A DNA stretch of 64,000 bases from a virus: IMG/VR virus record IMGVR_UViG_3300045988_082835, one strand, 5' to 3'. Both the position numbers and the translations under genes were made by a program. This document shows positions 14,394-38,821 of this stretch, piece by piece. The notes beneath the pieces are model-generated. The model ran no database searches and was not told the DNA's origin. It saw only the letters and a program-made list of their open reading frames with translations. Position 1 is the stretch's first letter; each line of letters begins with the position of its first letter.

Positions 14394-14422
14394 TTGACAA
14401 GTCTTAAAAGACTTGATACAAT
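14394..14422 (+). promoter_or_regulatory. sigma70-like early promoter TTGACA-17-TGaTACAAT (second at 14296..14324)
   Basis: consensus hexamers with 17-nt spacer upstream of 14474. Confidence 0.5.
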
Positions 14423-14473
14423 ACAGGCAGAACACAAGAGAACCACACCACAAAAAGAAAGAGAGTAAAAAAG

Positions 14474-14851
14474 ATGAAAAAGATTGATTTTACTAATGAT
14501 GATAGGAAGGTCATCATGGAGTACCTAGCCGCTAAGCAAGCAGTAGCGGCGGCAGAGGTTGCAGAGAAAGCGGCCAAGGCCAAAGCGAAAGAGGTTTTCA
14601 CCCGTTTGGGGAAAGAGTTCAAGACCACGGATAAGACCTCTTATCTGTACGGCACAGTCCAGATAAAGGGCGCCGCTCATGCGGTGGTCTATAAAGAGAC
14701 TACCGCTAAAGGAGCGATAGACTGGAAAGCCTACGCTTTAGCTAAAGGCGGCACAGAGGCAGAGGCGGAGCAATACCGCAAGCGTCCGACGGTCAGAACC
14801 TCTCTTGATTGGGCAACGAAAGACCAGCAAAAAGAACTCAATCAGCAGTAG
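14474..14851 (+). CDS. hypothetical early protein (Ala/Lys-rich)
   Basis: ORF track; two sigma70-like promoters upstream; terminator downstream. Confidence 0.5.
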   Translation: MKKIDFTNDDRKVIMEYLAAKQAVAAAEVAEKAAKAKAKEVFTRLGKEFKTTDKTSYLYGTVQIKGAAHAVVYKETTAKGAIDWKAYALAKGGTEAEAEQYRKRPTVRTSLDWATKDQQKELNQQ

Positions 14852-14856
14852 TTTAT

Positions 14857-14897
14857 AAACCCTGCCTTGCAAAACCCAAGGCAAGGCAGGGTTATAT
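14857..14897 (+). terminator. rho-independent terminator
   Basis: AACCCTGCCTTGC..GCAAGGCAGGGTT hairpin plus T-tract. Confidence 0.55.
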
Positions 14898-15126
14898 AAT
14901 CAAAAGAAAGAAGGCTGTATTATGAGGTATCAGTTGCAGGTTTTAGTGGGTGACAAAATGCGATACTATGAGCCGTCTACTTTTGCACACGCAAGATGGA
15001 GAGTAGACCATGAGCTTGTCAATCCTGACTATTGGATTGTAGACCTGTCTACCGGCGAAGCTATCAAGTAACCATATACCACAAGAAGCTGACCTAACGG
15101 CTATACGGGGAGAAAGGATAAAAGAT

Positions 15127-15513
15127 ATGTCTAACTTCATCAAGTATTACACCAATCCCACCTTTAATAAGCCTGAGTTCGTGCGTGTTCTCCGTTACTC
15201 CATGAATGTGAAGGCGGCCGCTGTGGATGATGGTATCATCCTTGACTTAGACGCTTTTAATGCTATCTCTAAGGCCGTCATGCCACATTGGGCCTTTATC
15301 AATGCACGGTATATCAACAGCAAGCTTCACACTCGTCCTGCCTCTCTTGACGAGTATAAGGCCGCTCTGGATAAGGACACCACAGAACAGCTTTATATCA
15401 TTCGGGATAACTATTATAATGAGTATGACAGGGTAACTGCCAAAGAATGGGATAGGCTTAATGCCGAAATCCCTGGACGGTATGACCTTCTGGGGAAGGA
15501 GCCTGCGGTATGA
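15127..15513 (+). CDS. hypothetical early protein
   Basis: ORF track 128 aa. Confidence 0.5.
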   Translation: MSNFIKYYTNPTFNKPEFVRVLRYSMNVKAAAVDDGIILDLDAFNAISKAVMPHWAFINARYINSKLHTRPASLDEYKAALDKDTTEQLYIIRDNYYNEYDRVTAKEWDRLNAEIPGRYDLLGKEPAV

Positions 15514-15720
15514 GAGTGCTACGGTATATAGGAGGCGGCCTTTGCGCCGCTCTCCTTCTCTGGATTGCTTTGAGCTGGGCTGACATAGTAGCAGATAACA
15601 GCTATCCAAATCCACAGCATAGTGAGTATAACTTCTTTACTGTGATGTTTTAATATTCTATCCGGTAATCTGCACAAAGATTGCCGGATATTTTTGTGCA
15701 CTTTCCCATATTGACTTTTC

Positions 15721-15765
15721 GCCGGGCCGCCAGCGTGCGCCGCGGCCCGAATTTTTGTTTGTTCG
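15721..15765 (+). terminator. GC-rich terminator of the GGCCCG..CGGGCC-GAATTTTT family
   Basis: family recurs at 17271, 18241, 19371, 20826, 22350 and 24140. Confidence 0.5.
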
Positions 15766-15831
15766 GCAGTTTCAACAATTATATGGCCAAAAGTTTGTGC
15801 AATCTGCCGAGAATTTTTCTCCCGAAATCGC

Positions 15832-15860
15832 TTGACATTCCTTTGTGGGTATGGTATATT
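15832..15860 (+). promoter_or_regulatory. early promoter TTGACA-17-TATATT preceded by the conserved CCCGAAATCGC element
   Basis: motif also at 17383..17411 and 18336..18364. Confidence 0.5.
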
Positions 15861-15913
15861 ATACTTGTCCAGAGAGACAGACCACAAAAAGAATTTGAAA
15901 GGAAGTAAAAGAA

Positions 15914-16153
15914 ATGGTGTGCTTCAAAGACGTTGTGATTTTGTTCCGGCAATACTCTTTCTGTCTGGAAGAGGATGCGGCTATTCAGGTAATCGACAGC
16001 AATACCGGCGCACATTTCCGGTTTGACAAGGAATGGAAGCTCCAGCTCGGCGGTGACTTTTATGGCGATGACCTCAGCGCCCTGTTCAAGAAGCAGGTGA
16101 CTGAGATTGAAATGAGAGAAGAAGGTGGCGTTAATATCTACATTAACGCATAA
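15914..16153 (+). CDS. hypothetical small early protein
   Basis: ORF track; promoter 15832..15860 with leader. Confidence 0.45.
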   Translation: MVCFKDVVILFRQYSFCLEEDAAIQVIDSNTGAHFRFDKEWKLQLGGDFYGDDLSALFKKQVTEIEMREEGGVNIYINA

Positions 16154-16191
16154 GAAACTGCGGGAGTGGAGGTCTATGACTTCCACTCCCC

Positions 16192-16404
16192 ATGATAAAA
16201 AATTCTATGGAGGTCAATTTCCGCATGATTACAAGAGAACAGTATAATATGGCAGAAGAACAGTGGAGAAATCTGTGGCATATTCGCAATAATCTTTATG
16301 AACAACTTGCTTTTGTTAATTCAGCAATAAAAGAAATCGAAGATAAATATTTCAAGTTAGAAAAGGAGGGGATTATCAATGACTATCGAGAGACTTCCGC
16401 GTGA
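16192..16404 (+). CDS. hypothetical small early protein
   Basis: ORF track. Confidence 0.4.
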   Translation: MIKNSMEVNFRMITREQYNMAEEQWRNLWHIRNNLYEQLAFVNSAIKEIEDKYFKLEKEGIINDYRETSA

Positions 16405-16649
16405 ATATCCTATTGGTTCCACTGTTTGGACTAATAAGGGATACGGAACAGTTTTGGCAAGACTGGGGAAATATCACCTTATCTGGTTACAGAGGCTGGG
16501 GCTGGCATAAGTCAGTCCTTGCTTTTTTCAAAAAAATATATTATAATAATTATAGAAAAATAAAGAAAGGAGTTTTTCTAATGACCTTAGAAGTGCTGAA
16601 AGCACTCGCGGTTATTTTTGGAGTTCTGTTTGAACTAGGATTCTTGTAA
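16401..16649 (+). CDS. hypothetical small protein with C-terminal TM helix
   Basis: ORF track. Confidence 0.4.
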   Translation: MNILLVPLFGLIRDTEQFWQDWGNITLSGYRGWGWHKSVLAFFKKIYYNNYRKIKKGVFLMTLEVLKALAVIFGVLFELGFL

Positions 16650-16786
16650 GAATTGTCCTATGGCTCAGTTCTGCCAGAAAATGCCTTGCGAGTGGTAATT
16701 ATTCCCTCCGATTGTTACAAATCGGCGATTCCCGTGATGGAGTCGTTTTTCGCACGAACCTAGGTCACTAGAATTTATTTATCAAA

Positions 16787-17023
16787 ATGCAAGAAACTAC
16801 TTTCTCAAGGAAATTGGATTCAAGTGGGCGCATCATGATTCCCGTAAGACTACGAGAGTAGATGGGCCTTGTTTCTGGTCAAGAATATTATTTCACTACT
16901 ATGGTAAAGGATGGCAGAAAATATATTTGTATCGACTGTGGCTCCGTTGACAATACTTCTCTTGAAGAAGCTATGCGAATTATACAAGCAAATGGAATGA
17001 AAATTGTTGAAAGTACCGATTGA
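16787..17023 (+). CDS. AbrB/MazE-family (SpoVT_AbrB fold) DNA-binding protein, one in-frame TAG
   Basis: RKLDSSGRIMIPVRLREQMGLVSGQEYYF resembles the swapped-hairpin AbrB N-domain; start uncertain (16712..16787). Confidence 0.5.
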
Positions 17024-17382
17024 CTTCCCGAAATTCTTATGTTAAAATTAAGTTATCAAAAGAAAGGAAGTTGAGAGATATGTATGAATTTGAGATTTTG
17101 CTTGAAAATGGCTCGACCGACAATATCTCTGGTTATTCCTATGAAGATGCTCTTTTCCGGTCTCGACGTAAACCTGAAGAGGTTGTAAAAGTTTTAAATC
17201 GAGAATATGTAGATTGAGATTTTCCTCCCAAAATGGGAGGAATTTCTTTTCCAATTCAAAATATATTGTTCAGCCGGCCGCGCATGAGCGCAGCGGCCGG
17301 AATTTTTTGTCAAGAGGCAATTTGCACAATTTTTGGATCAGTTTATTGGTGAAATTGACGGAAAGAAATTTCCCAAAATCGC

Positions 17383-17411
17383 TTGACTTTTCTCTCTCAT
17401 TCTGATATACT
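17383..17411 (+). promoter_or_regulatory. early promoter TTGACT-17-TATACT
   Basis: hexamers and spacing. Confidence 0.45.
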
Positions 17412-17463
17412 TAAACCATCAAGAGGGGAGAACAAAAGCCCTCAAGAAAGGGAGTAAAAGAAA

Positions 17464-17703
17464 ATGAAAAGCTATGTGGTTATGGCTGATAATCGTGAGA
17501 AGATTATCTGTGTATCTGATGATCTGCGGTTAGCTCGTGGCGCGGGCTGGGACTGGCTGAAAAAGCAATATAATCCCGATAACTGGCAGGATATTCTGGA
17601 GGATATGGACTACGAAAGCGAAAACGACCTGCGGCATGATATGCTCCTTGGGGCCTGCTGGGAAAATTTCGACATGGAAATTATCGAGGTAGAGAGGGTA
17701 TAA
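17464..17703 (+). CDS. hypothetical early protein
   Basis: ORF track; promoter 17383..17411. Confidence 0.45.
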   Translation: MKSYVVMADNREKIICVSDDLRLARGAGWDWLKKQYNPDNWQDILEDMDYESENDLRHDMLLGACWENFDMEIIEVERV

Positions 17704-17878
17704 TCCCTCTCTACCGCAGGAGGAACTAGCATGACCACTTTTATCATAATTGTTCTTGCCATTTGCCTGACTATCCAGTATGTGACCGCTATAATAAAAA
17801 ACCATTTCCTGCTTGCTATACTTTTCGCCGCCGAAATTATAATGTTTGGATATATTATAAATACTCCGATATAAAGGG

Positions 17879-17907
17879 TTGACAAATCCAACCCTTTATG
17901 ATATAAT
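17879..17907 (+). promoter_or_regulatory. early promoter TTGACA-17-TGaTATAAT
   Basis: hexamers and spacing. Confidence 0.5.
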
Positions 17908-17957
17908 AATACCATCAAGAGAAGGAAAACTCTATAAAACCAGAAAGGAAGTATGTT

Positions 17958-18197
17958 ATGACTATCAAGATGCCCAAGATGACCGAGGAAGATAGGGACA
18001 GTCTGATTGCTCTTCATACAGCAATGCGTTTGATAGACCGGAGTTCGGCCGACTCCGCTTTGGTTCAGTCTTTGGGGAAGTTCCTGCGTGAAGATACCTG
18101 TACTCCCGATGACGCGGCCACTATTTTGAAGGCGGTCTTCGACGAAGAGGCTGACCGCAGAGCTAACGAAATTGGCATTGATTTCCCTATGATGTAA
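17958..18197 (+). CDS. hypothetical early protein
   Basis: ORF track; promoter 17879..17907; terminator 18199..18236. Confidence 0.45.
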   Translation: MTIKMPKMTEEDRDSLIALHTAMRLIDRSSADSALVQSLGKFLREDTCTPDDAATILKAVFDEEADRRANEIGIDFPMM

Positions 18198-18198
18198 A

Positions 18199-18236
18199 AG
18201 AAATGCTCCCGGTTTTCCGGGAGCTTCTTTTTTATT
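18199..18236 (+). terminator. rho-independent terminator
   Basis: GCTCCCGG-TTTT-CCGGGAGC + T8. Confidence 0.6.
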
Positions 18237-18335
18237 TGCATAATATTGGGCGGATCGCGCAGGGTTGGCGCGATCCGAATTTTCTATGATTAGCAGTTTC
18301 AACAAAATATGTTTGCAAATGTTGTGCATTTTGAC

Positions 18336-18364
18336 GATTGACACTTCTCCCGAAATCTGCTATA
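18336..18364 (+). promoter_or_regulatory. early promoter TTGACA-17-TATACT
   Basis: hexamers and spacing. Confidence 0.45.
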
Positions 18365-18431
18365 CTATTAAATGTAAAGAGGGGAAACGAGTAAAACCTC
18401 TCAAATTAAAACAGAAAGGGAGTTTTTAGAA

Positions 18432-18827
18432 ATGCGTGTTACTAAGAGAATTGAAGAATATGTTCGTGACGAGGTTCGCAAGATTTCTGCCTGTAAGGAG
18501 GCGGCTATCCGGGAGAGGTATCAGCCAGAGTTCGACGCGCTGGAGGCTTTTAAGGAGGCTATCGTCAAGTCGGCCAATGAGCTGGGCGATACTATCCAGG
18601 CGGAAATGCAGGCTAAGGGCTATAAGACTTCCAGATATTGCGAGAATGTCATCCAGACCTGCACTTGCGGCATTTATACTCCGGCCAAGAAAAAAATGGA
18701 TGATGAAATCGCAGAGATTAACACATGGATTAACGAGCAGACCCGGCTCATGTGCGTCAAATTGGAAATGGGTGGAGATATGAACACCTTAACAGCCATG
18801 CTTGAGGAACTGCGCAAGGAGTTTTAA
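18432..18827 (+). CDS. hypothetical early protein
   Basis: ORF track; promoter 18336..18364. Confidence 0.45.
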   Translation: MRVTKRIEEYVRDEVRKISACKEAAIRERYQPEFDALEAFKEAIVKSANELGDTIQAEMQAKGYKTSRYCENVIQTCTCGIYTPAKKKMDDEIAEINTWINEQTRLMCVKLEMGGDMNTLTAMLEELRKEF

Positions 18828-18857
18828 GGAAGGAGGTAGAGAGGGCAAGCAATAGCC

Positions 18858-19337
18858 TTGCCCTCTCTAATAAAAAAAATGAAAGTAACTGGCATTGTGC
18901 GGCGCATTGATGATCTCGGCCGGGTAGTAATTCCTAAGGAAATTCGTCGGAATATGAATATTCGGGAAGGCGACCCGCTAGAAATCTTTATTGAAGATGG
19001 CGGGGTGGTTTTCAAGAAATATTCCCTACTATCTTCTTTTGCTCCTCAGGCCGCACATATTCAAAAAGTTTTAAGCATTAACGGCATTTCAGCGTCGGTT
19101 TTTGATAATTCAAGTCTTTTGTGCGGCCCTCGCCCCTTCGGAATGTCAAAGACCCCGGATGAATGGTTCAATATTCGTAATTGGGGTACTGAATGGAAGG
19201 GAAAATCGTTGTTTGTTACTCCTATTATTGCAGAAGGTGAGGTAATCGGCTTTATTTGCTATAAAAACGATAAAGAATCAGCGCATGATATGGTTCGACT
19301 TTCTGCGCAATTTCTAGCTCAATTTGCAGAAAATTAA
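18858..19337 (+). CDS. SpoVT/AbrB-family transcriptional regulator (AbrB N-domain plus C-terminal domain)
   Basis: MKVTGIVRRIDDLGRVVIPKEIRRNMNIREGDPLEIF closely matches the AbrB/SpoVT N-terminus; 159 aa like SpoVT. Confidence 0.7.
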   Translation: MPSLIKKMKVTGIVRRIDDLGRVVIPKEIRRNMNIREGDPLEIFIEDGGVVFKKYSLLSSFAPQAAHIQKVLSINGISASVFDNSSLLCGPRPFGMSKTPDEWFNIRNWGTEWKGKSLFVTPIIAEGEVIGFICYKNDKESAHDMVRLSAQFLAQFAEN

Positions 19338-19370
19338 AGAGGGCTTCGGCCCTCTTTTTTATACCAAAAT
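19337..19370 (+). terminator. rho-independent terminator
   Basis: AGAGGGCTTCGGCCCTCT + T-tract (same hairpin at 22318 and 54148). Confidence 0.6.
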
Positions 19371-19423
19371 TTCGACGGCGCGCTGACGCTCACAGCGCGC
19401 CGAGTTTTCTTGTTTGTAAGTTC

Positions 19424-19492
19424 TGCACAATTTTTGACTTGAAATCTTGTGCAAAATGTCATCTTGCAATTATCCTTAAATTATGGTATTAT
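19424..19492 (+). promoter_or_regulatory. regulatory cassette: operator-like palindrome TGCACAA-N16-TTGTGCA then promoter TTGCAA-17-TGGTATTAT; near-identical copy at 20881..20949
   Basis: about 70-bp duplicated block; inverted half-sites. Confidence 0.5.
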
Positions 19493-19519
19493 TAGTACAG
19501 AAAGAAGGAGGGACACTAA

Positions 19520-19744
19520 ATGAAACCTTCAAAGTTTATTCGGCCTAATGAGTGTTTAACTGTGGCTGAAATCTACCGCCGCCAATTTGGTGGTACTACC
19601 ACCCCAGAGAATTATGGGATCTATATGCAAGCTATTCTTTTGCGCGACCCTCTAATTTATGTGGATTATACGTCAATGCCTTATAAGGTATATCGGCATA
19701 AAAATTTCTTTGAAAAACTTGTTGACAAGATAGGCAACAGGTAG
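19520..19744 (+). CDS. hypothetical early protein
   Basis: ORF track; promoter 19464..19492 with flanking operator palindrome. Confidence 0.4.
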   Translation: MKPSKFIRPNECLTVAEIYRRQFGGTTTPENYGIYMQAILLRDPLIYVDYTSMPYKVYRHKNFFEKLVDKIGNR

Positions 19745-19774
19745 TATAATAAAACAAAAGGAGGTTATATATAT

Positions 19775-20239
19775 ATGATAACTAAAAAAATGCTCTGCTT
19801 TGATATGGACGGGACAATTGCAGATCTATACGCAGTCCCCAACTGGCTTGAAAAACTCCGCGATGGAGACCCCAGCCCATTCCGAGACGCCGCCCCCATG
19901 TGGGATATGAACGCCCTCCGAAATGCGCTTCTAAACGCAATTAGTAACGGGTGGGAGGTTCGAGTTATTACATGGTTGCCCCCTGAAAGCCCCCCTGAAT
20001 ATAAGAAAGCAGTCACAGCCGCCAAAAAGGAATGGCTTGCAAGGCATAAATTTCCGGCCCATAAATGCCATTGTGTGGCGTATGGAACAACTAAAGCTAA
20101 ATGTGTATTCCGTAGTTTCTATGAACCGCCGTTTATCCTCTTTGATGATAACGGCAAAATTAGAAACGGCTGGCATTTAGGGGATACCGTAGACCCCCAA
20201 ACTACAAACATTATTGAATATATCAACAATCTGGACTAA
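19775..20239 (+). CDS. HAD-superfamily hydrolase, probable 5'(3')-deoxyribonucleotidase
   Basis: motif I MLCFDMDGTIADL (DxDGT). Confidence 0.55.
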   Translation: MITKKMLCFDMDGTIADLYAVPNWLEKLRDGDPSPFRDAAPMWDMNALRNALLNAISNGWEVRVITWLPPESPPEYKKAVTAAKKEWLARHKFPAHKCHCVAYGTTKAKCVFRSFYEPPFILFDDNGKIRNGWHLGDTVDPQTTNIIEYINNLD

Positions 20240-20242
20240 ATA

Positions 20243-20273
20243 AAAGGGGCGGGTGAAATCCCCGCCCCATATC
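20243..20273 (+). terminator. rho-independent terminator
   Basis: GGGGCGGG-TGAAAT-CCCGCCCC. Confidence 0.55.
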
Positions 20274-20295
20274 TGGAAAATACGTAAAAAAGTTC

Positions 20296-20324
20296 TTGAC
20301 AATCTCACCGCATTGTGGTATAAT
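20296..20324 (+). promoter_or_regulatory. early promoter TTGACA-17-TGGTATAAT
   Basis: perfect consensus. Confidence 0.55.
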
Positions 20325-20549
20325 TTAATCATCAAGAGGGGATAACCCTCATAAAAGAAAGGAAGCTTTACTATGATGAATTTCTACTTTAAGACTGCGG
20401 CGGGCCATGTGTTCGTGGGTGTCGGTAAGGATGTTGACCGTGCCCGTTCTGATGCCAAGCGCAAGGCCGGTTCTCTTTGGTCGCCTTCGGCCAAGTGCTT
20501 CAAAATCGGGAACGCCATTTAAGGCGTTCCCAATAGAAAGAAAAGTTAT

Positions 20550-20786
20550 ATGAGAGTTAAAATTTCAATTTCTATCCAGCGTGAGTTAGAGGTCGATCAT
20601 CCTATCTTCCAACAGCTGGCCGATATTCATAGAAAAGGCCCGGCTTCAGTTGCAAACGATATTATGTATGATATTGCCACTAAAGAAATTGAGAGAGTGA
20701 CAGGAATTTCCACTGATTACAATAAATCTATCTCCATCACCAGCGTAGATGCTCTGCCTGATGAAACACCAATTTTAGAGTTTTAA
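20550..20786 (+). CDS. hypothetical early protein
   Basis: ORF track. Confidence 0.4.
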   Translation: MRVKISISIQRELEVDHPIFQQLADIHRKGPASVANDIMYDIATKEIERVTGISTDYNKSISITSVDALPDETPILEF

Positions 20787-21062
20787 AAAAATCCTCCCTA
20801 AATGGGAGAATTTTTTATATAAAGAAAATCAGCGGCCCGCGCTTGAGCGCCGCGGGCCGAATTTTTTTCTGTTGTAATGTTGCACAATTTTCAAGCAGAA
20901 ATCTTGTGCAAAATGCCATCTTGCAATTATCCTGAAACTATGGTATTATTATCATGTCAGGAGGAAAGGAAAAAGTTCTCCAGAGTAGGGTAAAGAGTCC
21001 CTTTTGTGAGAGAGGTTATCGCGACGCCTTTTTCAACGGAGAAAAAAAATATAAAATCCCTC

Positions 21063-21091
21063 TTGACACCAAGCCTTAAATGTGCTATAAT
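21063..21091 (+). promoter_or_regulatory. early promoter TTGACA-17-TGcTATAAT
   Basis: perfect consensus. Confidence 0.55.
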
Positions 21092-21125
21092 GATACCACC
21101 AAGAGAAGAAAGGACTTGATAGATT

Positions 21126-21950
21126 ATGATTGATAAACGCCGACATTATGTGCTGGTGGTTGATACAGAAACCGCCAACACATTAACCGAGACTGTCCCC
21201 GCTGAAATTGGGGAAGATGGGGAAATTATTACTCCAGAGCGCGTCCGTATGGATATGTCAAATGTTTTGGTATATGACTGCGGCTGGGCGGTCGTAGACA
21301 CCAAAGGCAATATTTACGAAACCGCAAGTTTTGTAAATCGGGATATTTTCAATGACGAGCGGGATTTAATGCGGACGGCCTATTATAACTGGAAAATCCC
21401 CCGGTATGTAGAGGAATTGCGGGCTGGCAGTCGCAAGATGGCTACTACCTATGAAATCCGTCAGGCCATGCTGGACACTATCGAGCGGTACGGCATTAAG
21501 GAGGTCGCCGCATATAATGCCCGCTTCGATGATAACGCCCTTCGGGTCACTCAGCGTTGGGTCACTTGTTCCAAATTCCGGTATTGGTTCCCATTTGACA
21601 GCGTGGAAATTTGGGACATTATGAAAATGACGCAAGATGTCATTTGCCAGATGCCCACCTATAAGAAATTCTGTGAGGAACACGGGTATGTGCAGGCTAA
21701 TGGCGTTCCCCGCAAGACTGCGGAAATCGTGTGGCGGTTTATCTCCGGCAACACTGATTTTGAGGAAAGCCACACGGGACTGGAAGATGTTCTGATTGAG
21801 GCGGAAATCATGTGGTACTGTATGCGCCAGCATAAGCCCATGAGAAAGGCCCTGTATGAGAACAAGCGGGAGTTTCCGCCCATGACAGATTTTCAGCGTC
21901 AGCTTTCCGCAAGTTTGCGGCAGATTCCGACAATCCGGGTCGGGGCTTAA
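21126..21950 (+). CDS. DEDDh-type 3'-5' exonuclease (DnaQ/RNase T-like)
   Basis: VLVVDTETAN (ExoI), AAYNARFDDNAL (ExoII), HTGLEDVLIEAEIMW (ExoIII). Confidence 0.6.
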   Translation: MIDKRRHYVLVVDTETANTLTETVPAEIGEDGEIITPERVRMDMSNVLVYDCGWAVVDTKGNIYETASFVNRDIFNDERDLMRTAYYNWKIPRYVEELRAGSRKMATTYEIRQAMLDTIERYGIKEVAAYNARFDDNALRVTQRWVTCSKFRYWFPFDSVEIWDIMKMTQDVICQMPTYKKFCEEHGYVQANGVPRKTAEIVWRFISGNTDFEESHTGLEDVLIEAEIMWYCMRQHKPMRKALYENKREFPPMTDFQRQLSASLRQIPTIRVGA

Positions 21951-22486
21951 TGCCCCGCCCGGTAGAAGGAGAAATAAGAAATGTTTCAGGGATTAAAGAA
22001 TAAGGCTATTCGCTTCCTACTTGAGCGGACGTGCCCAGATGTATTTACCATCAAGGCCATGCTTTCCAAGGTAACGCAGAAAGAAATGCAGTTTTATGCC
22101 GACCAGTTCTACTCAAAGAAAGAGGGTTAAATATGCAAACAAGAATTGTATATACTTCTTCCCTTTGTCCCGATGCCGTTTTCACGGCGCTTGAAATCAT
22201 CAAGCGTATGGGATGGAGCCATGATGAACCCGATGAAAACGGGGATATACTGGTATCCATCCCCGCCGAGGATGAACACCTGTTCGACTTTTTAGATAAC
22301 TGCCTTTTCGGATAAAAAGAGGGCTTCGGCCTTCTTTTTTTGTTTTATATTTTGGCGGGTCGCGCATGGGCGGCGCGACCCGATTTTTTCCTTGTAAATG
22401 TTGCACAAAAAATTTGATTCCGTTTTGTGCAACATTTTGCACAAAAACCCTATCCCAAAATCACGTTCTTTTGGAGGATCTCACAA

Positions 22487-22790
22487 TTGAAATCCGCTTT
22501 GTGGTGTGGTACAATAAGTACAGAAAGTGAGAGAGACGAACGGCAGACAGCGACAGCGAACTTTCAAAAATCTTTCAAAAAACCTCTTGACAAGCCCTTG
22601 TGAGTGTGCTATAATAAGTACAGAAAACAAGGCAAGGAACCTTGAAAAGTGAATAAAAAAGGGCTTGACAAACTCTCCAAAGTGTGTTACACTATAAGGG
22701 GAACGAGAGAGGGCAAACAAGTAAAGGGCAAAAGCTCTTGAAAAAAGTTTGAAAAACCTCTTGACAAACTCCCGATAGTGTGGTACAATA
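22487..22790 (+). promoter_or_regulatory. array of four tandem sigma70-like promoters (22487, 22588, 22665, 22762), each with an AAAACCTCTTGACAA -35 context
   Basis: TTGAAA-17-TACAAT; TTGACA-17-TATAAT; TTGACA-17-TACACT; TTGACA-17-TACAAT. Confidence 0.45.
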
Positions 22791-22838
22791 TAATCAAAGG
22801 ACAAGGACAGTCCTAAAAACCAGAAAGGATGTATTACC

Positions 22839-23240
22839 ATGAGCGAGAAGAAAATCCGTATCACTAAGGCCCAGCGTTTCGAGGACATTAAGGCCCTCTT
22901 GGCTGGTGAGGAGGTGAAGCATGGCACAACCATGGAGATTGCCATGACCGTCATTGACCATGAGCTGGAGCTGTTGCGGAAGAAGAATAGCTCCGGCGGT
23001 GACAAGAAGCTGACCCCGACCCAGCAGGAGAACGAGAGCCTGAAGGAGCAGATTATGGAGTATCTGGCCGGCCTGCCCGATGACACCGACGGCGTGACCT
23101 GTACCGACATTTTCAAGTCTGTGCCCTCTCTGGCCGCTTTCTCCACTCAGAAGGCCGCCGCCCTTGTGCGGATGCTCAAGCTGGACGGCCGTGTGACCTG
23201 TCAGGAGAAGAAGGGCAAGTCTCTCTTTAAGATGGCGTAA
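22839..23240 (+). CDS. hypothetical early protein
   Basis: ORF track; preceded by four tandem sigma70-like promoters. Confidence 0.45.
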   Translation: MSEKKIRITKAQRFEDIKALLAGEEVKHGTTMEIAMTVIDHELELLRKKNSSGGDKKLTPTQQENESLKEQIMEYLAGLPDDTDGVTCTDIFKSVPSLAAFSTQKAAALVRMLKLDGRVTCQEKKGKSLFKMA

Positions 23241-23377
23241 CCCCGTATAGGGCGGGGCGAAAATCCCCGCCCTACTCTATCTTAGGGGGTGAGACTATAT
23301 CGAGCCGTATCACTGACGCCGAGAGGTTATCGAGATATAAGCCTCTCCAACTGACACCAGAGGAGGAGGCGGAGCTA

Positions 23378-23695
23378 TTGGCCTATGACAAGGCGGTGGA
23401 AGCTGGTGAAAAAACTCAATACGATTTATCGCCCGATAAAGCGAAAATCGCGCAGAAATTCGCCCATGCTGGCACAAGAAAAACCCCTACCGCCTACAAA
23501 TTTACACCACGGCAACGCAAGCCAAACGCAACTAAAGGCGGCATAATCGCAGAGCTGGCGGACTTTTTGGAAAAAAATAGTCAATTCTCGATTGTTGACC
23601 TTGCCATAACAAACAAGGAACGCCAAATTGCGTTTTTTATCGGTGGGGATAGTTTCGAGTTAACGCTTGTACAAAAGCGTAAACCGAAAAAATAA
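23378..23695 (+). CDS. hypothetical basic protein
   Basis: ORF track. Confidence 0.4.
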   Translation: MAYDKAVEAGEKTQYDLSPDKAKIAQKFAHAGTRKTPTAYKFTPRQRKPNATKGGIIAELADFLEKNSQFSIVDLAITNKERQIAFFIGGDSFELTLVQKRKPKK

Positions 23696-23696
23696 C

Positions 23697-23735
23697 GGGG
23701 TAGGGCTGGCCTACCCCAGCCCTACCAGAAAAGAG
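23697..23735 (+). terminator. rho-independent terminator
   Basis: GGGGTAGGGCTGGCCTACCCCAGCCCTACC hairpin. Confidence 0.45.
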
Positions 23736-23743
23736 GTATTCCA

Positions 23744-24102
23744 TAGTTAGCACACAGACACGGGAAAAGGAGTTTCTATACGTCGGGCATTATGTAGACG
23801 TAAAGGGACGCTATATTCTCAAGATTGGCACAACAAACGACCTCGAAAGACGGGCCGCCGAGCATACAAGGAATTATAAACGGGCAAAAGACTATACCAT
23901 GCCTGTGGATAGTGCTTTTTCCTATGATTGGTATATCCGGTTATCTAAGTATAATACCCTTCGATATGAGGACTTGAACCGGACTTTATGGCAAAATATG
24001 GGAATTGGACATTTTATCAGAAACGACCGCTTTCTCTGTGACACGCCCCCGCGCATGGTAACAGTCATTATCCGCAAGGCATACCCGGTTATTCTAAGCT
24101 AA
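23744..24102 (+). CDS. T5orf172/GIY-YIG-like domain protein; start codon unclear
   Basis: LYVGHYVDVKGRYILKIGTTNDLERRAAEH motif; no in-frame ATG upstream of the conserved domain. Confidence 0.4.
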
Positions 24103-24139
24103 CAAGAACCACCCCAGAAATGGGGTGGTTTTTTTATCC

Positions 24140-25450
24140 CAATATGCGGGCGGGCCGGTCGCGGGCGACTCGGCCCGAATTTCCCCGATCGGACCATAGC
24201 GCAAAATTTTCATAGCAAGTTGGCCATAACGCAACTTAGTCTAGAATCTCCCAAAATTATATTATAACCCGATCGGTTTTCTATCTTATCCCGATCGGTC
24301 CAGCAATAGCGGCTTTCTCGTCCATTTTTTATAATAAAAAAATTTAAAATTGTCAAGTGTTCATAAGACTAACATTATCCCCTATACAGCTAACAATAGC
24401 AAAGATGTTGCTATGAAAAACAAATACCAGCGAGAGATTTTTCTGCGGCGCCGATCGGAATAACGAGATTTTATAATAAAAATAGCTAGAAAATTCTACT
24501 TTTAGCTAGGTAAACCGATCGGTCCGCAGGTTTTTCCTCTTGTTTTTCTCTTAATATAGCGAAAATTCTCTAAAAATCTAGCAAAAACGCACATTTTTCT
24601 AATAAAATTACTTAAAAATTAGCAAAATTTGCCTCATTTTCAGCAAATCTTCTTGATGTTCACCCTTTCTATACTTTTATAGATACAATTAAAAAGACTT
24701 ATTCTCTAGCTAAGAATTTTCTAGTCGATGCCTCAATCAGAGAAGTTATTTTAGAATAAAAGATCTTTAAGCTAGGGCCGATCGGTTGCAATTTATAAAA
24801 TAATATTATATAATATAAATATAAAAGGAAAGAAAAGAGGAATATATTCCATGGATTATACTAATATGATTAAATGTGCTCTTGATGGCGGTGCGTCTCT
24901 CGACGATATTGCTAAGGAGTTTACTGATGCTCTAAATGTCTTTAATAAGCAGAATCAGGTTCGGAAGGCTCGTCAGCAAGCTTTGGATGAAATTGAGTCG
25001 ACTTTCTAAATGCTGTTGATGATGAGCATCTTGATGCAGAGCATATCGGACAGCTTGCAGTTCTTATTTATGCTCCTTCTCACCCTGAGTGGGATGCTGA
25101 TACTATCAATAAATATGCAGAGGCTATCACTGAGACTGCTCGTATTTCTGCCCGAATTGTCGGGATGAATAATATCAATGATGCACTTGCAGCGACAGAG
25201 GAAGAGCTTGATAAGATAATTGAGAAGGCGATTCAGGAGATGCGAAATGAATCGGTCTCCGTTTCCATCAAGAGCAACAATGATGAAGATGTGGTAGCTA
25301 AGTTCTTGAGAGGGCTTAGATAAAAGAGAGGTAGAGATACCTCTCTTTTTTTATTGCTATTAAACAAGAGGAAAGAAGTAGAAGAATCGCGGAAGCCTAG
25401 GTTTACGATCGTTTTGACGAGTGTTGTGATGGTTGTACCTAGACCCGATC
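24140..25450. repeat. seven copies of the palindrome CCGATCGG scattered through an AT-rich non-coding region
   Basis: copies near 24185, 24262, 24288, 24447, 24518, 24778 and 25443; AGCAAAA direct repeats at 24570..24650. Confidence 0.5.
24841..25323 (+). CDS. hypothetical protein in two frames (51-aa N-part, about 100-aa C-part) joined by an apparent -1 shift at CTTTCTAAATG
   Basis: both parts protein-like; frame change at T-TTC-TAA. Confidence 0.3.
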
Positions 25451-25454
25451 GGCA

Positions 25455-25530
25455 CCCAACTCTACTATTTCTCCAATTTTCTCTACTATTTCTCCAATTT
25501 TCTCTACTATTTCTCCAATTTTCTCCAATT
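25455..25530. repeat. tandem direct repeat TCTACTATTTCTCCAATTTTC x3.5
   Basis: visible 20-21-bp periodicity. Confidence 0.6.
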
Positions 25531-25869
25531 TCACTTATATTCTCCCTATAGTCTATCCACTTTCTTATGGCTTCGCTTGTAATCTAACTCGAATCCTCAT
25601 ATAGATTCAATAATCCCTTTTCCTCTACCTCTATTAATCTCTCTTACCCTACCCATTACTCTTCTTCTTGACTTTTCCCTTTAATTTTTGATTCGATTTT
25701 TCTAAAACCTTCTTCCAGCTTTTCAATTCGATTTTCTAAATCATTTGCTCCCATCGTCCCATCTATACTTCCTTGAATATCCTCCCACCTCTGAAAATCT
25801 TCCATGGTTATCCTCCCTATCCATCGCTTTCTCACAAATACATGAAAAAGTCGCCGTTGTCTTTTCTTT

Positions 25870-26110
25870 GTTATCTTATATATATGTTATATTTATGGTA
25901 TTGTCAGAATACCATGAAATGGATTTTTATTTACTTTCATGGTATTGTCAGAAAACCATGTCATAGTATTGTTGGAATACCATGAAATAAATCTTTCAAT
26001 TAAAATCATAGTATTGTCAGAATACTATGAAATTTTCATAGCTTTCCAACAAATACATGATTTCATAGGTTTCTCACAATACTATGAAATTCATGGTATT
26101 CTCAGAAATA
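25870..26110. repeat. six iteron-like imperfect palindromes CATGGTATTGTCAGAATACCATGAAAT spaced 30-45 bp apart
   Basis: repeated units with dyad GGTATT..AATACC; next to the wHTH and RHH genes. Confidence 0.55.
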
Positions 26111-26118
26111 CATGAAAA

Positions 26119-26517
26119 TTAAAACGAAAATTTTTCTCCGTTAGGAGCGACATAATTATATTTATCCTCGTCAATAATTTTAGGAACTTCGTAAAAATCG
26201 TAATACCCCTTCTTCTCAAGAGGAATCAAATACCCTTTTTCTACCAATCCTTCTATTGCATTTGTATATTTAGCTTTCTTTATACCCAACTCCCTCTCAA
26301 TAATAGTAGGGCCAAAATCATAATCTGTCAACTTCTCTGACTAACTAGCAAAAAATATCCATAAAGAAAACTCACCATCACTAAGTTCTCTTCTCGCCGC
26401 AAATAAAGCATCCTTATTAATTCTAGCATATATATTATTAGTATTACAAGGCTCTTTATGAATATGACTTACTGTTCGCTAATTAGGACTTCTTCTTTTG
26501 TCTGCCATGGCAATCAT
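26119..26517 (-). CDS. winged-helix DNA-binding protein (Rep/regulator-like), 2 in-frame TAG
   Basis: ERELGIKKAKYTNAIEGLVEKGYL wHTH-like; ORF-track 26119..26331 extended through TAG. Confidence 0.45.
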
Positions 26518-26701
26518 CCTCCAATAGCGAACTTTGTCCCTTATATTTCTCAATCGCTTCTCTTAATTCCTAAGTATCTTCAAAAAGATAAACATTTAAC
26601 CAAGGTTTCTAAGCATTTGGTGCTGTTCCAACAACCTTAAATCCCAACTCACATAGCTTTCTAGCTAACTTCAAAGTAAAAACCTTATAATTATTAGTCA
26701 T
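26483..26701 (-). CDS. hypothetical small protein, 1 in-frame TAG
   Basis: ATG after AAAGGAG; overlaps downstream gene in another frame. Confidence 0.3.
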
Positions 26702-26717
26702 TTTGTTTTCGTCTCCT

Positions 26718-26861
26718 TTAGTCGTTTGAATGGTTTTCTATATATTCTTTTACTGCTTTTCTAATTACTTGCGACATAGTTAAATCTCTATCCTTCGCAA
26801 ACTCTTCTAAAGTCTTTTTTTCTTCCTCTGTTAATCTAACAGAAACAGTCGAATAATTCAT
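26718..26861 (-). CDS. ribbon-helix-helix (CopG/Arc-like) DNA-binding protein
   Basis: STVSVRLTEEEKKTLEEFAKDRDLTMSQVIRKAVKEYI; RBS GAGAGGTG. Confidence 0.55.
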   Translation of the reverse strand: MNYSTVSVRLTEEEKKTLEEFAKDRDLTMSQVIRKAVKEYIENHSND

Positions 26862-27064
26862 ATTATCACCTCTCTACTATATTTCACTTTTATTATACCA
26901 TAATTTTTCTGCTTTGTCCTAAAATTTGTTAAACTTTTTTCTAAAAAAATAAACAATATAACAACTGCGGACTGGCAATTTTCTTGCCTAAAATTTTCCC
27001 GCATCCGTGAGAAATTATGACGATTCGTTGTATGCCCTCCCGCATTTGAAATTGTATATTTTAT

Positions 27065-27583
27065 ATGGTATTATATTTATATATAAAGGAGGTTAATGTA
27101 ATGCTACCTATTATTCTACCTATTGCTTTCTGTATTATGCTGCTCATCTTTTTGCTCGCAGGTTGTGACAGCATTATCGAGTATATAGTATGCTCACTCT
27201 TTTCCATGTTTGGCTCTATATTTCTAACATTTCTATCACTCGTAGTATGCGTATTCATCATTGAATGTGCAAACCCCGAAACCTATTCAGCAGAAACTAT
27301 CGCAACCTATGATATTATCGCACTAAGTGATAACTTTAGTTCAGAAGATGGACTTTGCTATTCGTTCCTATATCAAACGGATAAAGGCATCACTTCAAAG
27401 TCTATTAAAGCAGATAAAACTTACATTCAAGAAACTTCCGACGCTCCATATGCAACAGAAAACACTGTCCGCTTTAAAAATCCCGTCCTAAATGTTTTGT
27501 TTGGCTCTTGGTCTACAGAATATAATATCTATATTCCAGAAGGGTCATTTATCCAAGATGGATATGGCATTAGCCTTGAGTAA
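27065..27583 (+). CDS. membrane protein (two N-terminal TM helices)
   Basis: ORF track; RBS AAGGAGG; terminator 27585..27620. Confidence 0.5.
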   Translation: MVLYLYIKEVNVMLPIILPIAFCIMLLIFLLAGCDSIIEYIVCSLFSMFGSIFLTFLSLVVCVFIIECANPETYSAETIATYDIIALSDNFSSEDGLCYSFLYQTDKGITSKSIKADKTYIQETSDAPYATENTVRFKNPVLNVLFGSWSTEYNIYIPEGSFIQDGYGISLE

Positions 27584-37580: not shown

Positions 37581-37675
37581 CCCGCGGTAGCTCAACGGTA
37601 GAGCAGCCGGCTTATACCCGGTATTAGCGCCAGATTAGCGTGAGGTTTGGGGTTCGAATCCCTGGCGCGGGACCA
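37581..37675 (+). tRNA. atypical 95-nt tRNA: standard acceptor, D- and T-arms, anticodon loop CTTATAC (UAU), 25-nt unpaired extra region
   Basis: cccgcgg..ccgcggg acceptor, gctc/gagc D-stem, ttcgaat T-loop, ACCA 3' end. Confidence 0.4.
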
Positions 37676-37737
37676 TAGGCGTAACGCTGCACGCCCTCGA
37701 AAGAGGTATCACAGAAGGCACATACAGCAAAGTTATT

Positions 37738-38811: not shown

Positions 38812-38821
38812 TCCTCAATAT

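What the first reader, a model, noticed from the sequence alone, without database searches (positions are those of the whole stretch)
24140..26861. Candidate replication origin with Rep-like wHTH and RHH genes
The region is ORF-poor and AT-rich, with seven CCGATCGG (GATC-containing) palindromes, AGCAAAA repeats and a 3.5x tandem repeat. Six iteron-like palindromes CATGGTATTGTCAGAATACCATG abut the 3' end of a winged-helix protein gene, which is preceded by a CopG-like RHH gene. This is the classic arrangement of iteron origins with their initiator and copy-control proteins.
Basis: inference. Interest (0 to 1): 0.55.

Follow-up and report, generated by a model that had tools for sequence, protein, structure and literature searches.

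The report
Phage replication initiator with iteron array
A large gut phage that reads the stop codon TAG as glutamine carries a small DNA-binding gene of the phage replication-initiator type, followed by eight copies of its probable binding site; this is most likely an ordinary iteron-type replication origin, and it lies next to a separate, deeply conserved cluster of CCGATCGG sites whose role is unknown.

Summary
The sequence features are real. All seven CCGATCGG octamers of the 64-kb window lie in 24185-25452 (0.46 expected). Eight 23-bp palindromes, not six, fill 25822-26114 directly after the stop codon of a 129-aa winged-helix gene (26119-26508, minus strand). That gene is only intact if two in-frame TAG codons are read as Gln, which this phage does.

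The gene order is RHH, DUF5659, wHTH, repeats.

The 'Rep-like' reading is supported by homology. The wHTH has 687 remote homologues, many matching Pfam HTH_36 and PHROG 'replication initiation protein', 'O-like' or 'DnaD-like' families. In five other lineages the homologue carries its own array of 3-8 repeats, mostly ~23-bp palindromes, inside its linker-coding region or just after its stop. The repeat sequence changes with the protein, as at lambda O/ori.

The CCGATCGG region is a distinct element. It is conserved across three lineages while the iterons change, and it stands out because GATC is threefold depleted in the window. Nothing shows it is part of the origin.

The AGCAAAA repeats are at chance level and the 21-bp tandem repeat is not conserved. 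GC skew follows the coding strand, so it cannot locate an origin.

Verdict: a probable iteron origin of a known kind (confidence about 0.55), plus one unexplained conserved motif cluster.

The parts
26892..26920 (-). Sigma-70-like promoter of the RHH-DUF5659-wHTH operon (AGGACA-17-TATAAT with a TG extension)
   Evidence: Consensus scan, 10 of 12 matches with TG. The equivalent TTGGACA...TATAAT is present in L010. Prediction only.
26718..26861 (-). RHH (ribbon-helix-helix) gene, 47 aa, no TAG
   Evidence: Pfam DUF6290 2.2e-11 and RHH_1 1e-8, both above cut-off; PHROG CopG/Arc-like repressors. Conserved upstream of the module in L001-L010 and L015.
26483..26701 (-). DUF5659 gene, 72 aa, two in-frame TAG read as Gln; its end overlaps the wHTH start
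   Evidence: Pfam DUF5659 1.1e-6, 28.9 bits (cut-off 23.6), aligned across both TAG positions. A DUF5659 gene lies immediately upstream of the wHTH homologue in L011, L016/L017, L018, L010 and L015.
26119..26508 (-). Winged-helix (HTH_36-like) putative origin-binding initiator, 129 aa, TAG at codons 10 and 56, C-terminal motif NGEKFSF
25822..26114 (-). Array of eight 23-bp palindromic iteron-like units (gene-sense unit TTTCATGGTATT-CTGAC-AATACCATGAAA); GC 0.265
   Evidence: Unique in the window. Conserved as an array in L002-L008. Replaced by a different palindrome, CATGTACCTCTGAGAGGATTATG, in L010, whose wHTH is 47% identical.
25845..25893 (.). AT-rich spacer between units 8 and 7 (contains ATAACA x2 and TATATATA); candidate unwinding element and/or promoter of the small ORF
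   Evidence: Read from the sequence. Conserved as AAATATAACATATAT in L003 and L006. Not among the 25 least stable 40-bp windows.
25656..25805 (-). Small conserved coiled-coil ORF (49 aa) downstream of the array, preceded by AGGGAGGA
   Evidence: The motif DLExRIEKLEEGFRxIE is conserved in L003 once its TAG is read through. No family match.
25460..25525 (.). 21-bp x 3.1 perfect tandem repeat; variable, probably not functional
   Evidence: About two copies in L002 and absent in L003-L005.
25375..25455 (.). Conserved ~80-nt non-coding element containing CCGATCGG (25445) and CGATCG (25406)
   Evidence: Nearly identical in L003-L005. The core GGTGCCGATCGG...CTAG is also found in L010 and L015.
25322..25349 (.). 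Bidirectional intrinsic terminator between the convergent 157-aa gene and the minus-strand module
   Evidence: 12-bp stem plus T run; an A run on the other side is visible in the sequence.
24851..25323 (+). Acidic 157-aa protein gene of unknown function, carrying a 1-nt frameshift in this window
   Evidence: Two ORFs in different frames. Intact 157-aa gene in L001, L002 and L014. Only 26-35% identical in other lineages. No family.
24786..24814 (+). Promoter of the 157-aa gene (TTGCAA-17-TATAAT), abutted by the CCGATCGG at 24778
   Evidence: Conserved in L003, L010 and L015.
24183..24785 (.). Conserved non-coding region with six CCGATCGG octamers (24185, 24269, 24291, 24451, 24515, 24778); the pair 24451/24515 with flanks CTGCGG/CCGCAG forms a long stem
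   Evidence: 81% identity to L003, all octamers kept, a 115-nt block 100% identical. Fold z = -3.4. Two compensatory changes in L003. Three or four octamers at equivalent places in L010 and L015.
24151..24182 (.). GC-rich hairpin CGGGCCGGTCGCGGGCGACTCGGCCCG at the border with the early gene block
   Evidence: Member of the terminator-like hairpin family of the 12.6-24.1 kb block. Its sequence is conserved in L003, L010 and L015. Synteny with L001 and L002 breaks here, where they carry a two-gene insertion.

Best explanation
The finding contains two separate conserved elements.

ELEMENT A (25822-26920, minus strand) is a replication-initiation module of the lambda-O type. An operon RHH - DUF5659 - wHTH is transcribed from a sigma-70-like promoter. 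The 129-aa wHTH protein can only be completed once the phage's amber-suppressor tRNA reads TAG as Gln. It then binds as dimers to the eight 23-bp palindromic iterons that begin 4 bp after its stop codon. The resulting nucleoprotein complex would open the adjacent AT-rich spacer, and the conserved C-terminal tail (NGEKFSF) would recruit a helicase, loader or primase. DUF5659 is its conserved partner. The RHH most likely autoregulates the operon.

Shown: the anatomy, the homology, and the change of repeat sequence together with the protein.
Inferred: binding, DNA opening, recruitment, and that replication starts here.

ELEMENT B (24151-25455) is a conserved non-coding region flanking a fast-evolving 157-aa gene. 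It carries seven CCGATCGG octamers in a genome otherwise purged of GATC. It is under selection and is probably a set of protein-binding sites, with the locus RHH as the best but weak candidate, or of DNA/RNA stems. Its function is not established, and nothing shows that it belongs to the origin.
For: 1. Family. A profile of the wHTH finds 687 homologues. Of the best 150, 58 match Pfam HTH_36, a domain reported in plasmid Rep proteins and in Stx-phage replication regions (PMC3832669, PMC8951638). 63 match phrog_270 and 21 match phrog_428 ('replication initiation protein'), 34 match phrog_186 ('DnaD-like helicase loader'), and 18 match O-like families. The orthologues at the same locus in L010 and L015 match these families over the N-terminal DNA-binding part of the profiles.

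3. Repeats go with the gene. Six lineages carry arrays of 3-8 repeats, mostly ~23-bp palindromes, either in the linker-coding middle of the homologue's gene or just after its stop:
- the window clade;
- L010, CATGTACCTCTGAGAGGATTATG x7-8, with the first copy inside the 3' end of the gene;
- L015, TCTGAAAAACCGAC x7 as direct repeats, inside a 224-aa gene;
- L011, TTGTTTTCTGACAAAACAA x4, period 23;
- L016, AAAGTGGGAAAAACCCACTTT x3, period 23;
- L018, CTTACCATAAAAAATGATAAG x5, followed by an AT-rich AAATAATAT x3.
The repeat sequence differs wherever the protein differs. Origin repeats inside the initiator gene are the hallmark of lambda O, SPP1 G38P and RepA_N plasmids (established knowledge).

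4. The array is unique in the window and is its most AT-rich non-coding part.

5. C-terminal tails. 36 of 153 family members end in F-x-F, as this protein does. About 10 end in D-(L/I)-P-F, like the SSB tip that recruits replisome proteins (the SSB comparison is from established knowledge).

6. Genomic position. In the small temperate element L016 the homologue is the only protein between integrase and terminase with any replication-related match.

7. Element B. All 7 octamers are kept between lineages that are about 80% identical, and 4 are kept in L010 and L015. GATC occurs 89 times against 261 expected in the window, yet 9 of the 89 are in this region.
Against: - The window protein itself scores below the HTH_36 cut-off (17.3 against 25 bits) and matches no PHROG directly. 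The link to initiators runs through homologues, and the PHROG names are themselves annotations, not experiments.
- The protein has only 129 aa and no C-terminal domain.
- Unit 7 may overlap a -35-like CTGACA, and unit 8 lies just upstream of the small ORF's ribosome-binding site. That layout would also suit an operator.
- No exceptional DNA unwinding element and no DnaA boxes.
- No helicase, primase or polymerase gene was recognised among about 45 window proteins scanned.
- The cumulative G-C minimum of the window is at 10,900, not here, although skew tracks the coding strand.
- A phage genome of up to about 164 kb may use another origin or recombination-dependent replication.
- For element B, the RHH beta-strand differs in L010 and L009 while CCGATCGG is unchanged in L010, and there is no octamer at the RHH promoter.
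Confidence: 0.55

Rival explanations
1. Operator array. The wHTH is a transcription factor, made only after TAG suppression starts. It binds the eight palindromes to repress or activate the downstream small ORF and to insulate the convergent transcription units. No replication starts here.
Against: Eight to ten tightly packed sites are unusual for an operator. In L011, L015, L016 and L018 the arrays lie inside the coding region of the homologue's own gene, where an operator role is implausible and an origin role has precedent. The -35-like element is not conserved in L006, and the promoter scan did not report it. Homologues match replication-initiator families, not regulators.
Confidence: 0.2
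2. Partition or copy-control site. The array is a centromere-like or handcuffing element (comparable to TubR-tubC, ParR-parC or P1 incA) for a plasmid-like prophage state, bound by the wHTH and/or the RHH.
For: Arrays of 7-10 repeats next to a small wHTH or RHH gene are typical of type II and type III partition sites (established knowledge). TubR appears among the weak Foldseek hits. Iterons downstream of an initiator gene act as copy control in P1 and F (established knowledge).
Against: No ParA, ParM or TubZ-type NTPase gene in the locus or within several kb. No relative was found in 185,579 species genomes as a prophage or plasmid. The family's homologues sit in the replication modules of small phages.
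Confidence: 0.07
3. RNA hairpin array. The palindromes act in the transcript, as a run of 9-12-bp hairpins in the 3' UTR of the wHTH operon or the 5' UTR of the small ORF (REP-like stabilisers or attenuators), not as DNA sites.
For: Each unit can form a 9-12-bp hairpin. Unit 26007 keeps perfect pairing through a change on both arms (CATAG...CTATG), and unit 25962 gives a G-U pair on the minus-strand RNA.
Against: The copies share sequence, not just pairing. The 5-nt centres are directional (CTGAC or GTGAG in six of eight units). In L015 the repeats are direct, not palindromic. No Rfam match. The tie to a DNA-binding domain across six lineages is not explained.
Confidence: 0.05
4. For the CCGATCGG region only: it is the real or an additional cis-acting site for DNA replication or packaging. 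Options are a transcription- or R-loop-primed origin, a methylation-gated site like P1 oriR or pac, or the boundary of a terminal repeat that contains the early genes.
For: It is the only GATC cluster in a GATC-depleted sequence. The octamers are conserved across three lineages. The region lies exactly between the early gene block, with its host-like promoters and terminators, and the rest of the genome. It holds a conserved TTGACA-17-TATAAA promoter-like site on the minus strand at 24328-24356. The centre-to-centre spacings of 84, 22, 64 and 263 bp are close to whole helical turns. P1 pac has seven GATC hexamers (established knowledge).
Against: No methyltransferase was recognised in the window. 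The terminase-like genes are about 15 kb away. The minus-strand promoter is not conserved in L010 or L015. No RNA family matched. Folding is not significant apart from one stem. There are no data on physical genome ends.
Confidence: 0.12

Closest known systems
Phage lambda O protein and ori-lambda (also P22 gene 18 and other lambdoid origins located inside the initiator gene)
   Same: The N-terminal winged-helix domain binds as a dimer to an array of dyad-symmetric repeats located in the linker-coding part of its own gene, next to an AT-rich stretch. Homologues of the window protein match PHROG 'replication initiation O-like' families and carry arrays in their linker regions.
   Different: The protein here has 129 aa and no C-terminal P-binding-type domain. 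The array has eight 23-bp units (lambda has four of 19 bp) and lies just after the stop codon. There is no detectable direct sequence match to O, and a DUF5659 partner gene is present. Binding and initiation are untested.
RepA_N initiators of staphylococcal multiresistance plasmids (pSK41/pTZ2162 RepA, PDB 4pta) and DnaD/DnaB primosome N-terminal domains
   Different: Sequence identity is only 6-12% over 84-85 residues. No RepA_N Pfam match. This is a phage, not a plasmid. The C-terminal part is reduced to a short tail.
Bacillus phage SPP1 G38P with oriL, and SaPI Rep-ori modules
   Same: An initiator gene with its binding repeats inside it or immediately 3' of it, in Firmicute phages and satellites (established knowledge). 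The host of this clade is probably a Clostridia-class Firmicute, judging by relatedness to Phass-1 (PMC10607447).
   Different: G38P and SaPI Rep carry ATPase or helicase-interaction domains. No such domain is present here.
pMV158 copG-repB operon (RHH copy-control repressor upstream of the initiator)
   Same: An RHH gene is first in the operon that encodes the putative initiator. RHH_1/CopG match, and a weak RepB-RCR_reg match for the L010 orthologue.
   Different: pMV158 replicates by a rolling circle with a nicking Rep. No operator for the RHH was identified at its promoter. The copy-control role is pure analogy.
GATC clusters of E. coli oriC, P1 oriR and P1 pac
   Same: A local cluster of GATC-containing repeats in a non-coding control region.
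   Different: The conserved unit is the full octamer CCGATCGG, spread over 1.3 kb. There is no DnaA-box enrichment, no Dam or SeqA gene was found, and the hosts are probably Firmicutes.

Membership tests
Iteron-type phage origin with an O-like initiator | The initiator has a sequence-specific winged-helix DNA-binding domain homologous to known phage initiators | tested here: met
Iteron-type phage origin with an O-like initiator | An array of at least 3-4 repeated sites within or next to the initiator gene, specific to each initiator | tested here: met
   Eight units at 25822-26114. Arrays with lineage-specific sequences in L010, L011, L015, L016 and L018.
Iteron-type phage origin with an O-like initiator | An adjacent AT-rich DNA unwinding element | tested here: inconclusive
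   The array has GC 0.265, and a 49-bp AT-rich spacer lies between units 7 and 8. It is not among the 25 least stable windows.
Iteron-type phage origin with an O-like initiator | The initiator has a domain or motif that recruits a helicase or loader | tested here: inconclusive
   No C-terminal domain. There is only a conserved tail, NG(E/K)xFxF, shared with longer homologues, some of which end in an SSB-like DLPF. The partner is unknown.
Iteron-type phage origin with an O-like initiator | The protein binds the repeats and replication starts there | not testable with these tools
   Needs EMSA or footprinting and replication-initiation mapping.
Pfam HTH_36 (PF13730) | Score at or above the gathering threshold (25 bits) | tested here: not met
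   17.3 bits, E = 0.0043, for the window protein. 58 of its 150 closest remote homologues match at E <= 0.001, best 8e-11. It is therefore a divergent relative rather than a scored member.
Plasmid iteron Rep proteins (RepA/RepE/Pi, Rep_3; two winged-helix domains) | Two tandem WH domains and a Rep_3-type sequence match | tested here: not met
CopG/RHH_1 ribbon-helix-helix proteins | Sequence membership | tested here: met
   RHH_1 35.2 bits (cut-off 20.5) and DUF6290 44.2 bits (cut-off 27).
CopG/RHH_1 ribbon-helix-helix proteins | Acts as copy-control repressor of the initiator operon through an operator at its own promoter | tested here: inconclusive
   It is the first gene of the operon. No repeated or palindromic operator, and no CCGATCGG, was identified at 26862-27064.
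Dam/SeqA-type GATC-regulated origin (oriC, P1 oriR) | GATC cluster together with DnaA boxes and a Dam methylase | tested here: not met
   A GATC cluster is present (9 of the window's 89). DnaA-box matches are at chance and none lies in the region except 24068, with one mismatch. No methyltransferase among the proteins scanned.
Plasmid or phage partition centromere (ParR-parC, TubR-tubC, ParG) | An adjacent NTPase motor gene (ParA, ParM or TubZ) | tested here: not met
   None in the locus or its neighbours. The only AAA protein is at 49.7 kb.

The most novel reading that the evidence does not exclude
A bipartite, code-gated origin. A minimal 129-aa O-like initiator, whose codon for a near-invariant Gln is TAG, can be made only after the phage's amber suppressor is active. 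It fires from the eight-iteron array. The neighbouring CCGATCGG octamers are the only GATC cluster in a GATC-purged genome and are conserved across lineages that have exchanged iterons and the intervening gene. They would form a previously undescribed licensing or architectural element, gated by the RHH or by methylation. DUF5659 would be a new, widespread partner of this initiator family.
Probability: 0.12. Interest if true: 0.7.

Novelty: new variant of a known kind. Interest (0 to 1): 0.42.

Why it matters
Origins of replication are unknown for the large, uncultivated, stop-codon-recoded phages of the gut. If this module is the origin, it gives four things.

- A concrete initiator-and-site pair to test by EMSA, plasmid replication and coverage profiles.
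- A candidate function for DUF5659. It is the conserved upstream neighbour of this initiator family in phages from about 12 kb to over 130 kb, and no paper in the searched library mentions it.
- A test of whether replication is tied to the genetic-code switch, since the initiator needs TAG read-through.
- A defined cis-element, CCGATCGG, that is kept against genome-wide GATC avoidance.

If the array is only an operator, the finding is an ordinary regulatory region.

Tried and rejected
- DNA and protein searches of 50,697 GenBank phage records with the region, the wHTH, a typical family member, DUF5659 and a neighbouring gene: no match. Only the capsid gene places the phage near Phass-1 and EF1-like phages.
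- Scan of 185,579 species genomes for the wHTH: nothing.
- Rfam at gathering and at E-value thresholds: no RNA family in 23.6-27.1 kb.
- RNA folding of 24140-24320 on either strand: not significant (z -1.0 and -1.2). A small-RNA reading of that block is therefore unsupported.
- Nearest-neighbour duplex stability: the region holds no uniquely unstable DNA. The promoter at 24790 ranks fifth, and the iteron spacer does not rank.
- DnaA boxes: chance level.
- AGCAAAA: chance level.
- PADLOC: no defence-system match. NCBIfam: no family.
- Foldseek against the PDB and a sequence search of PDB chains: only generic winged-helix similarity.
- The first AF2 model, from 3 sequences, was poor (pLDDT 51) and was discarded in favour of the 150-sequence model.
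- GC skew as an origin locator: rejected. The cumulative minimum at 10,900 and the local inversion at 25,435-27,488 coincide with changes of gene strand, and coding-strand skew is positive for every gene set.
- The literature search for CCGATCGG gave nothing relevant.
- RHH as the CCGATCGG binder: attractive, because both are conserved between the window and L015, but not supported by L010, where the beta-strand differs and the octamer does not.
- PHROG scan of the genes around the homologue in L016: no further replication proteins.
Full report
CONTEXT

The window comes from a large phage that reads TAG as an amino acid.
- Allowing TAG as sense raises greedy ORF coverage from 0.66 to 0.84, and from 0.41-0.55 to 0.98-0.99 in the late-gene block at 4-12 kb.
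- A tRNA with anticodon CUA lies at 54919-54993 within an array of 29 tRNAs.
- The capsid protein is 51% identical to that of Phage Phass-1, a 136-kb TAG-to-Gln phage predicted to infect Clostridia (PMC10607447).
- Near-identical and about 80%-identical relatives are IMG/VR contigs of 96-164 kb.
- Left of the finding lies a block at 12.6-24.1 kb with higher GC (0.43) and almost no TAG. Each small gene there has a TTGACA-N17-TGnTATAAT promoter and a GC-hairpin terminator. It looks like an early region.

CHECKING THE OBSERVATION

- CCGATCGG occurs exactly seven times, all between 24185 and 25452, against 0.46 expected.
- The tandem repeat is 21 bp x 3.1, at 25460-25525.
- The palindromes are real and unique to 25822-26114: five lie within 3 mismatches of CATGGTATT-N5-AATACCATG against 0.06 expected, and there are eight when degenerate copies are counted.
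- AGCAAAA is not enriched (25 against 20.6).
- The stretch 24103-24850 has no credible ORF in any frame, even with TAG = Gln.
- The rest of the finding does encode proteins. On the plus strand there is a 157-aa acidic protein gene (24851-25323), broken here by a 1-nt deletion and intact in L001, L002 and L014. On the minus strand lie RHH (26718-26861), DUF5659 (26483-26701), wHTH (26119-26508) and, beyond the palindromes, a conserved 49-aa coiled-coil ORF (25656-25805).
- The wHTH and DUF5659 genes each contain two in-frame TAG codons. Codon 10 of the wHTH falls on a Gln conserved in at least 90% of 150 homologues, and the DUF5659 Pfam match runs across both of its TAGs. Both observations independently support TAG = Gln.

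THE wHTH PROTEIN

Direct searches give little: HTH_36 at 17.3 bits, below the cut-off, no PHROG match, and only five close relatives in 5.8 billion proteins.

A profile search of 1.84 billion representatives finds 687 homologues of 105-380 aa that share the N-terminal ~115 residues. Of the best 150:
- 58 match HTH_36 and 3 match DnaD_N;
- 63 match phrog_270 and 21 match phrog_428 ('replication initiation protein');
- 34 match phrog_186 ('DnaD-like helicase loader');
- 18 match O-like families.

The orthologues at the same locus in two diverged relatives match these families over the N-terminal part of the profiles: P0006 from L010 against phrog_186 (3.5e-5) and phrog_270 (3.9e-4), and the L015 protein against phrog_678 (1e-4). 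HTH_36 is described in plasmid Rep proteins and in Stx-phage replication regions (PMC3832669, PMC8951638).

THE COMPARATIVE RESULT

This carries most of the weight. In every lineage where I could read the DNA, the homologue's gene is accompanied by its own array of short repeats, and the array is where lambda-type origins are.
- Window clade: eight to ten units directly after the stop codon.
- L010 (wHTH 47% identical): seven or eight units directly after the stop, with the first copy inside the 3' end of the gene. The arms change from GGTATT to TACCTC while the TTTCATG ends and the CTGA centre stay.
- L015 (a 144-kb IMG/VR contig with the same locus architecture and a 224-aa protein): seven direct repeats TCTGAAAAACCGAC inside the linker-coding part of the gene.
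- L011 (237 aa): four 23-bp palindromes TTGTTTT-CTGAC-AAAACAA in the linker region.
- L016 (218 aa, a small temperate element running from integrase to terminase): three 23-bp palindromes AAAGTGGG-AAAAA-CCCACTTT in the linker.
- L018 (278 aa, a 132-kb pig-gut contig): five 23-bp palindromes CTTACCAT-AAAAA-ATGATAAG in the linker, followed by AAATAATAT x3.

Repeats that follow the protein, change when it changes, and sit in the linker-coding part of the gene match what is known for lambda O/ori-lambda, SPP1 G38P/oriL and RepA_N plasmids (established knowledge). They are hard to explain as transcriptional operators.

Two further regularities emerged.
- A DUF5659 gene lies immediately upstream of the homologue in the window clade, L010, L015, L011, L016/L017 and L018.
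- Short and long family members share a C-terminal motif NG(E/K)xFx(F/V). 36 of 153 end in F-x-F and about ten end in D-(L/I)-P-F, like the SSB tip. This suggests a tail that recruits a partner.

PROPOSED MECHANISM (INFERENCE)

The operon RHH-DUF5659-wHTH is transcribed from the promoter at 26892-26920. Full-length DUF5659 and wHTH appear once the suppressor tRNA is active. wHTH dimers then occupy the eight units, whose asymmetric 5-bp centres mostly point the same way. The complex opens the AT-rich spacer at 25845-25893, and the tail, perhaps together with DUF5659, brings in a helicase or primase. The RHH probably autoregulates. Use of the alternative code in replication genes is reported as variable among recoded phages (bioRxiv 10.1101/2021.08.26.457843), so TAG codons in an initiator gene are not an argument against this.

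WHAT ARGUES AGAINST IT

- The protein is very small.
- No recognisable replisome gene lies in the window.
- There is no uniquely unstable DNA and there are no DnaA boxes.
- Units 7 and 8 bracket a possible promoter and 5' UTR of the small ORF, which fits an operator.
- GC skew cannot decide the matter. The cumulative G-C minimum is at 10,900, where late (minus) and plus-strand genes diverge. The only other inversion (25,435-27,488) coincides with the minus-strand module. Coding-strand skew is positive for every gene set, from 0.09 to 0.34.

THE CCGATCGG REGION IS A DIFFERENT ELEMENT

- All seven octamers are kept, with similar spacing, in lineages that are about 80% identical at the DNA level (L003-L005, L034, L045, L050).
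- Four are kept at equivalent places in L010 and L015, whose iterons and 157-aa gene are very different.
- The octamers flank the fast-evolving 157-aa gene on both sides.
- One abuts the -35 of that gene's promoter (24778 next to TTGCAA at 24786).
- The pair at 24451/24515, with flanks CTGCGG/CCGCAG, forms a long stem (z = -3.4) that is maintained in L003 by two compensatory changes (TCGCGG/CCGCGA).
- A 115-nt block ending in the GC hairpin at 24151-24182 is 100% identical between the two clades.
- GATC is threefold depleted in the window (89 against 261 +/- 15), yet nine of the 89 are here. The octamers are therefore retained against a genome-wide pressure.

The locus RHH is nearly identical in its beta-strand between the window and L015, which fits a conserved site. 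It differs in L010 and L009, and no octamer lies at the RHH promoter. I could not assign a function. Protein-binding sites for a conserved factor, DNA/RNA stems, or a packaging or terminus signal at the edge of the early block all remain possible.

ELEMENTS OF THE FINDING THAT ARE NOT FUNCTIONAL EVIDENCE

The 21-bp tandem repeat is variable or absent in close relatives. The AGCAAAA 7-mer is at chance, although the longer TTTTGCTA-containing blocks at 24560-24665 are conserved within the clade.

VERDICT

It remains unproven (confidence about 0.55). The main rival is an operator array (about 0.2). The GATC/CCGATCGG cluster should be treated as a separate, unexplained conserved element rather than as part of a 'classic' origin. 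The plasmid-style copy-control label for the RHH is only an analogy.

Noticed in passing
window 1-64000: GATC is about threefold under-represented (89 against 261 +/- 15 expected), which suggests restriction avoidance. Nine of the 89 sites, and 8 of the 11 CGATCG, lie in 24187-25450.
   Followed up: partly
window 1-64000: CCGCRG/CYGCGG is 3.6-fold over-represented across the whole window (69 against 19 expected). No explanation was sought.
   Followed up: no
window 37581-55885: An array of 29 tRNA genes, including a CUA-anticodon suppressor (54919-54993). Embedded in it are a tmRNA (44377-44707, 71.6 bits) and a full-length ROOL RNA (47254-47849, 350 bits).
   Followed up: no
window 56015-60342: A DUF2828/DUF7788 protein (507 aa) lies directly upstream of an 807-aa protein with major-vault-protein shoulder and repeat domains. 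This is a vault-like gene pair in a phage.
   Followed up: no
window 12600-24100: An early-looking block with higher GC (0.43) and almost no TAG. Each small gene has its own TTGACA-N17-TGnTATAAT promoter and GC-hairpin terminator. It includes PARG (12637-13401), PTH2 peptidyl-tRNA hydrolase (13386-13823), an AbrB/MazE-fold protein (18858-19337) and a T5orf172-like gene (about 23740-24102).
   Followed up: partly
window 24995-25010: The conserved 157-aa gene carries a 1-nt deletion (TGCGAC to TCGAC) that splits it into two frames. It is intact in L001, L002 and L014. This is either a real pseudogene or an assembly error.
   Followed up: partly
window 24149; L001 5795-6687; L002 12340-13232: Relatives carry an extra two-gene cassette (87 aa and 150 aa) between two copies of the GC hairpin, exactly where synteny with the window breaks. 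The hairpins may mediate cassette gain and loss.
   Followed up: partly
window 26479-26481 (codon 10 of the wHTH gene): The in-frame TAG falls on a Gln conserved in at least 90% of 150 homologues. This is direct alignment evidence that TAG encodes Gln in this phage.
   Followed up: yes
L042 11250-11800 (IMGVR_UViG_3300045988_073130): A relative carries a second, GC-richer paralogue of the wHTH family (ending SEFYF) about 10 kb from the first. It is absent from the window and may be an inserted element with its own initiator.
   Followed up: no
L011, L016/L017, L018, L010, L015 and window 26483-26701: DUF5659 genes lie immediately upstream of HTH_36-like initiator homologues in phages from about 12 kb to over 130 kb. 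This is a conserved gene pair. No paper in the searched library mentions DUF5659.
   Followed up: partly
window 11248-12078: A phage-encoded FolD (methylene-tetrahydrofolate dehydrogenase/cyclohydrolase) with seven in-frame TAG codons lies at the switch between the late and early blocks, where the cumulative GC skew has its minimum (10,900).
   Followed up: no
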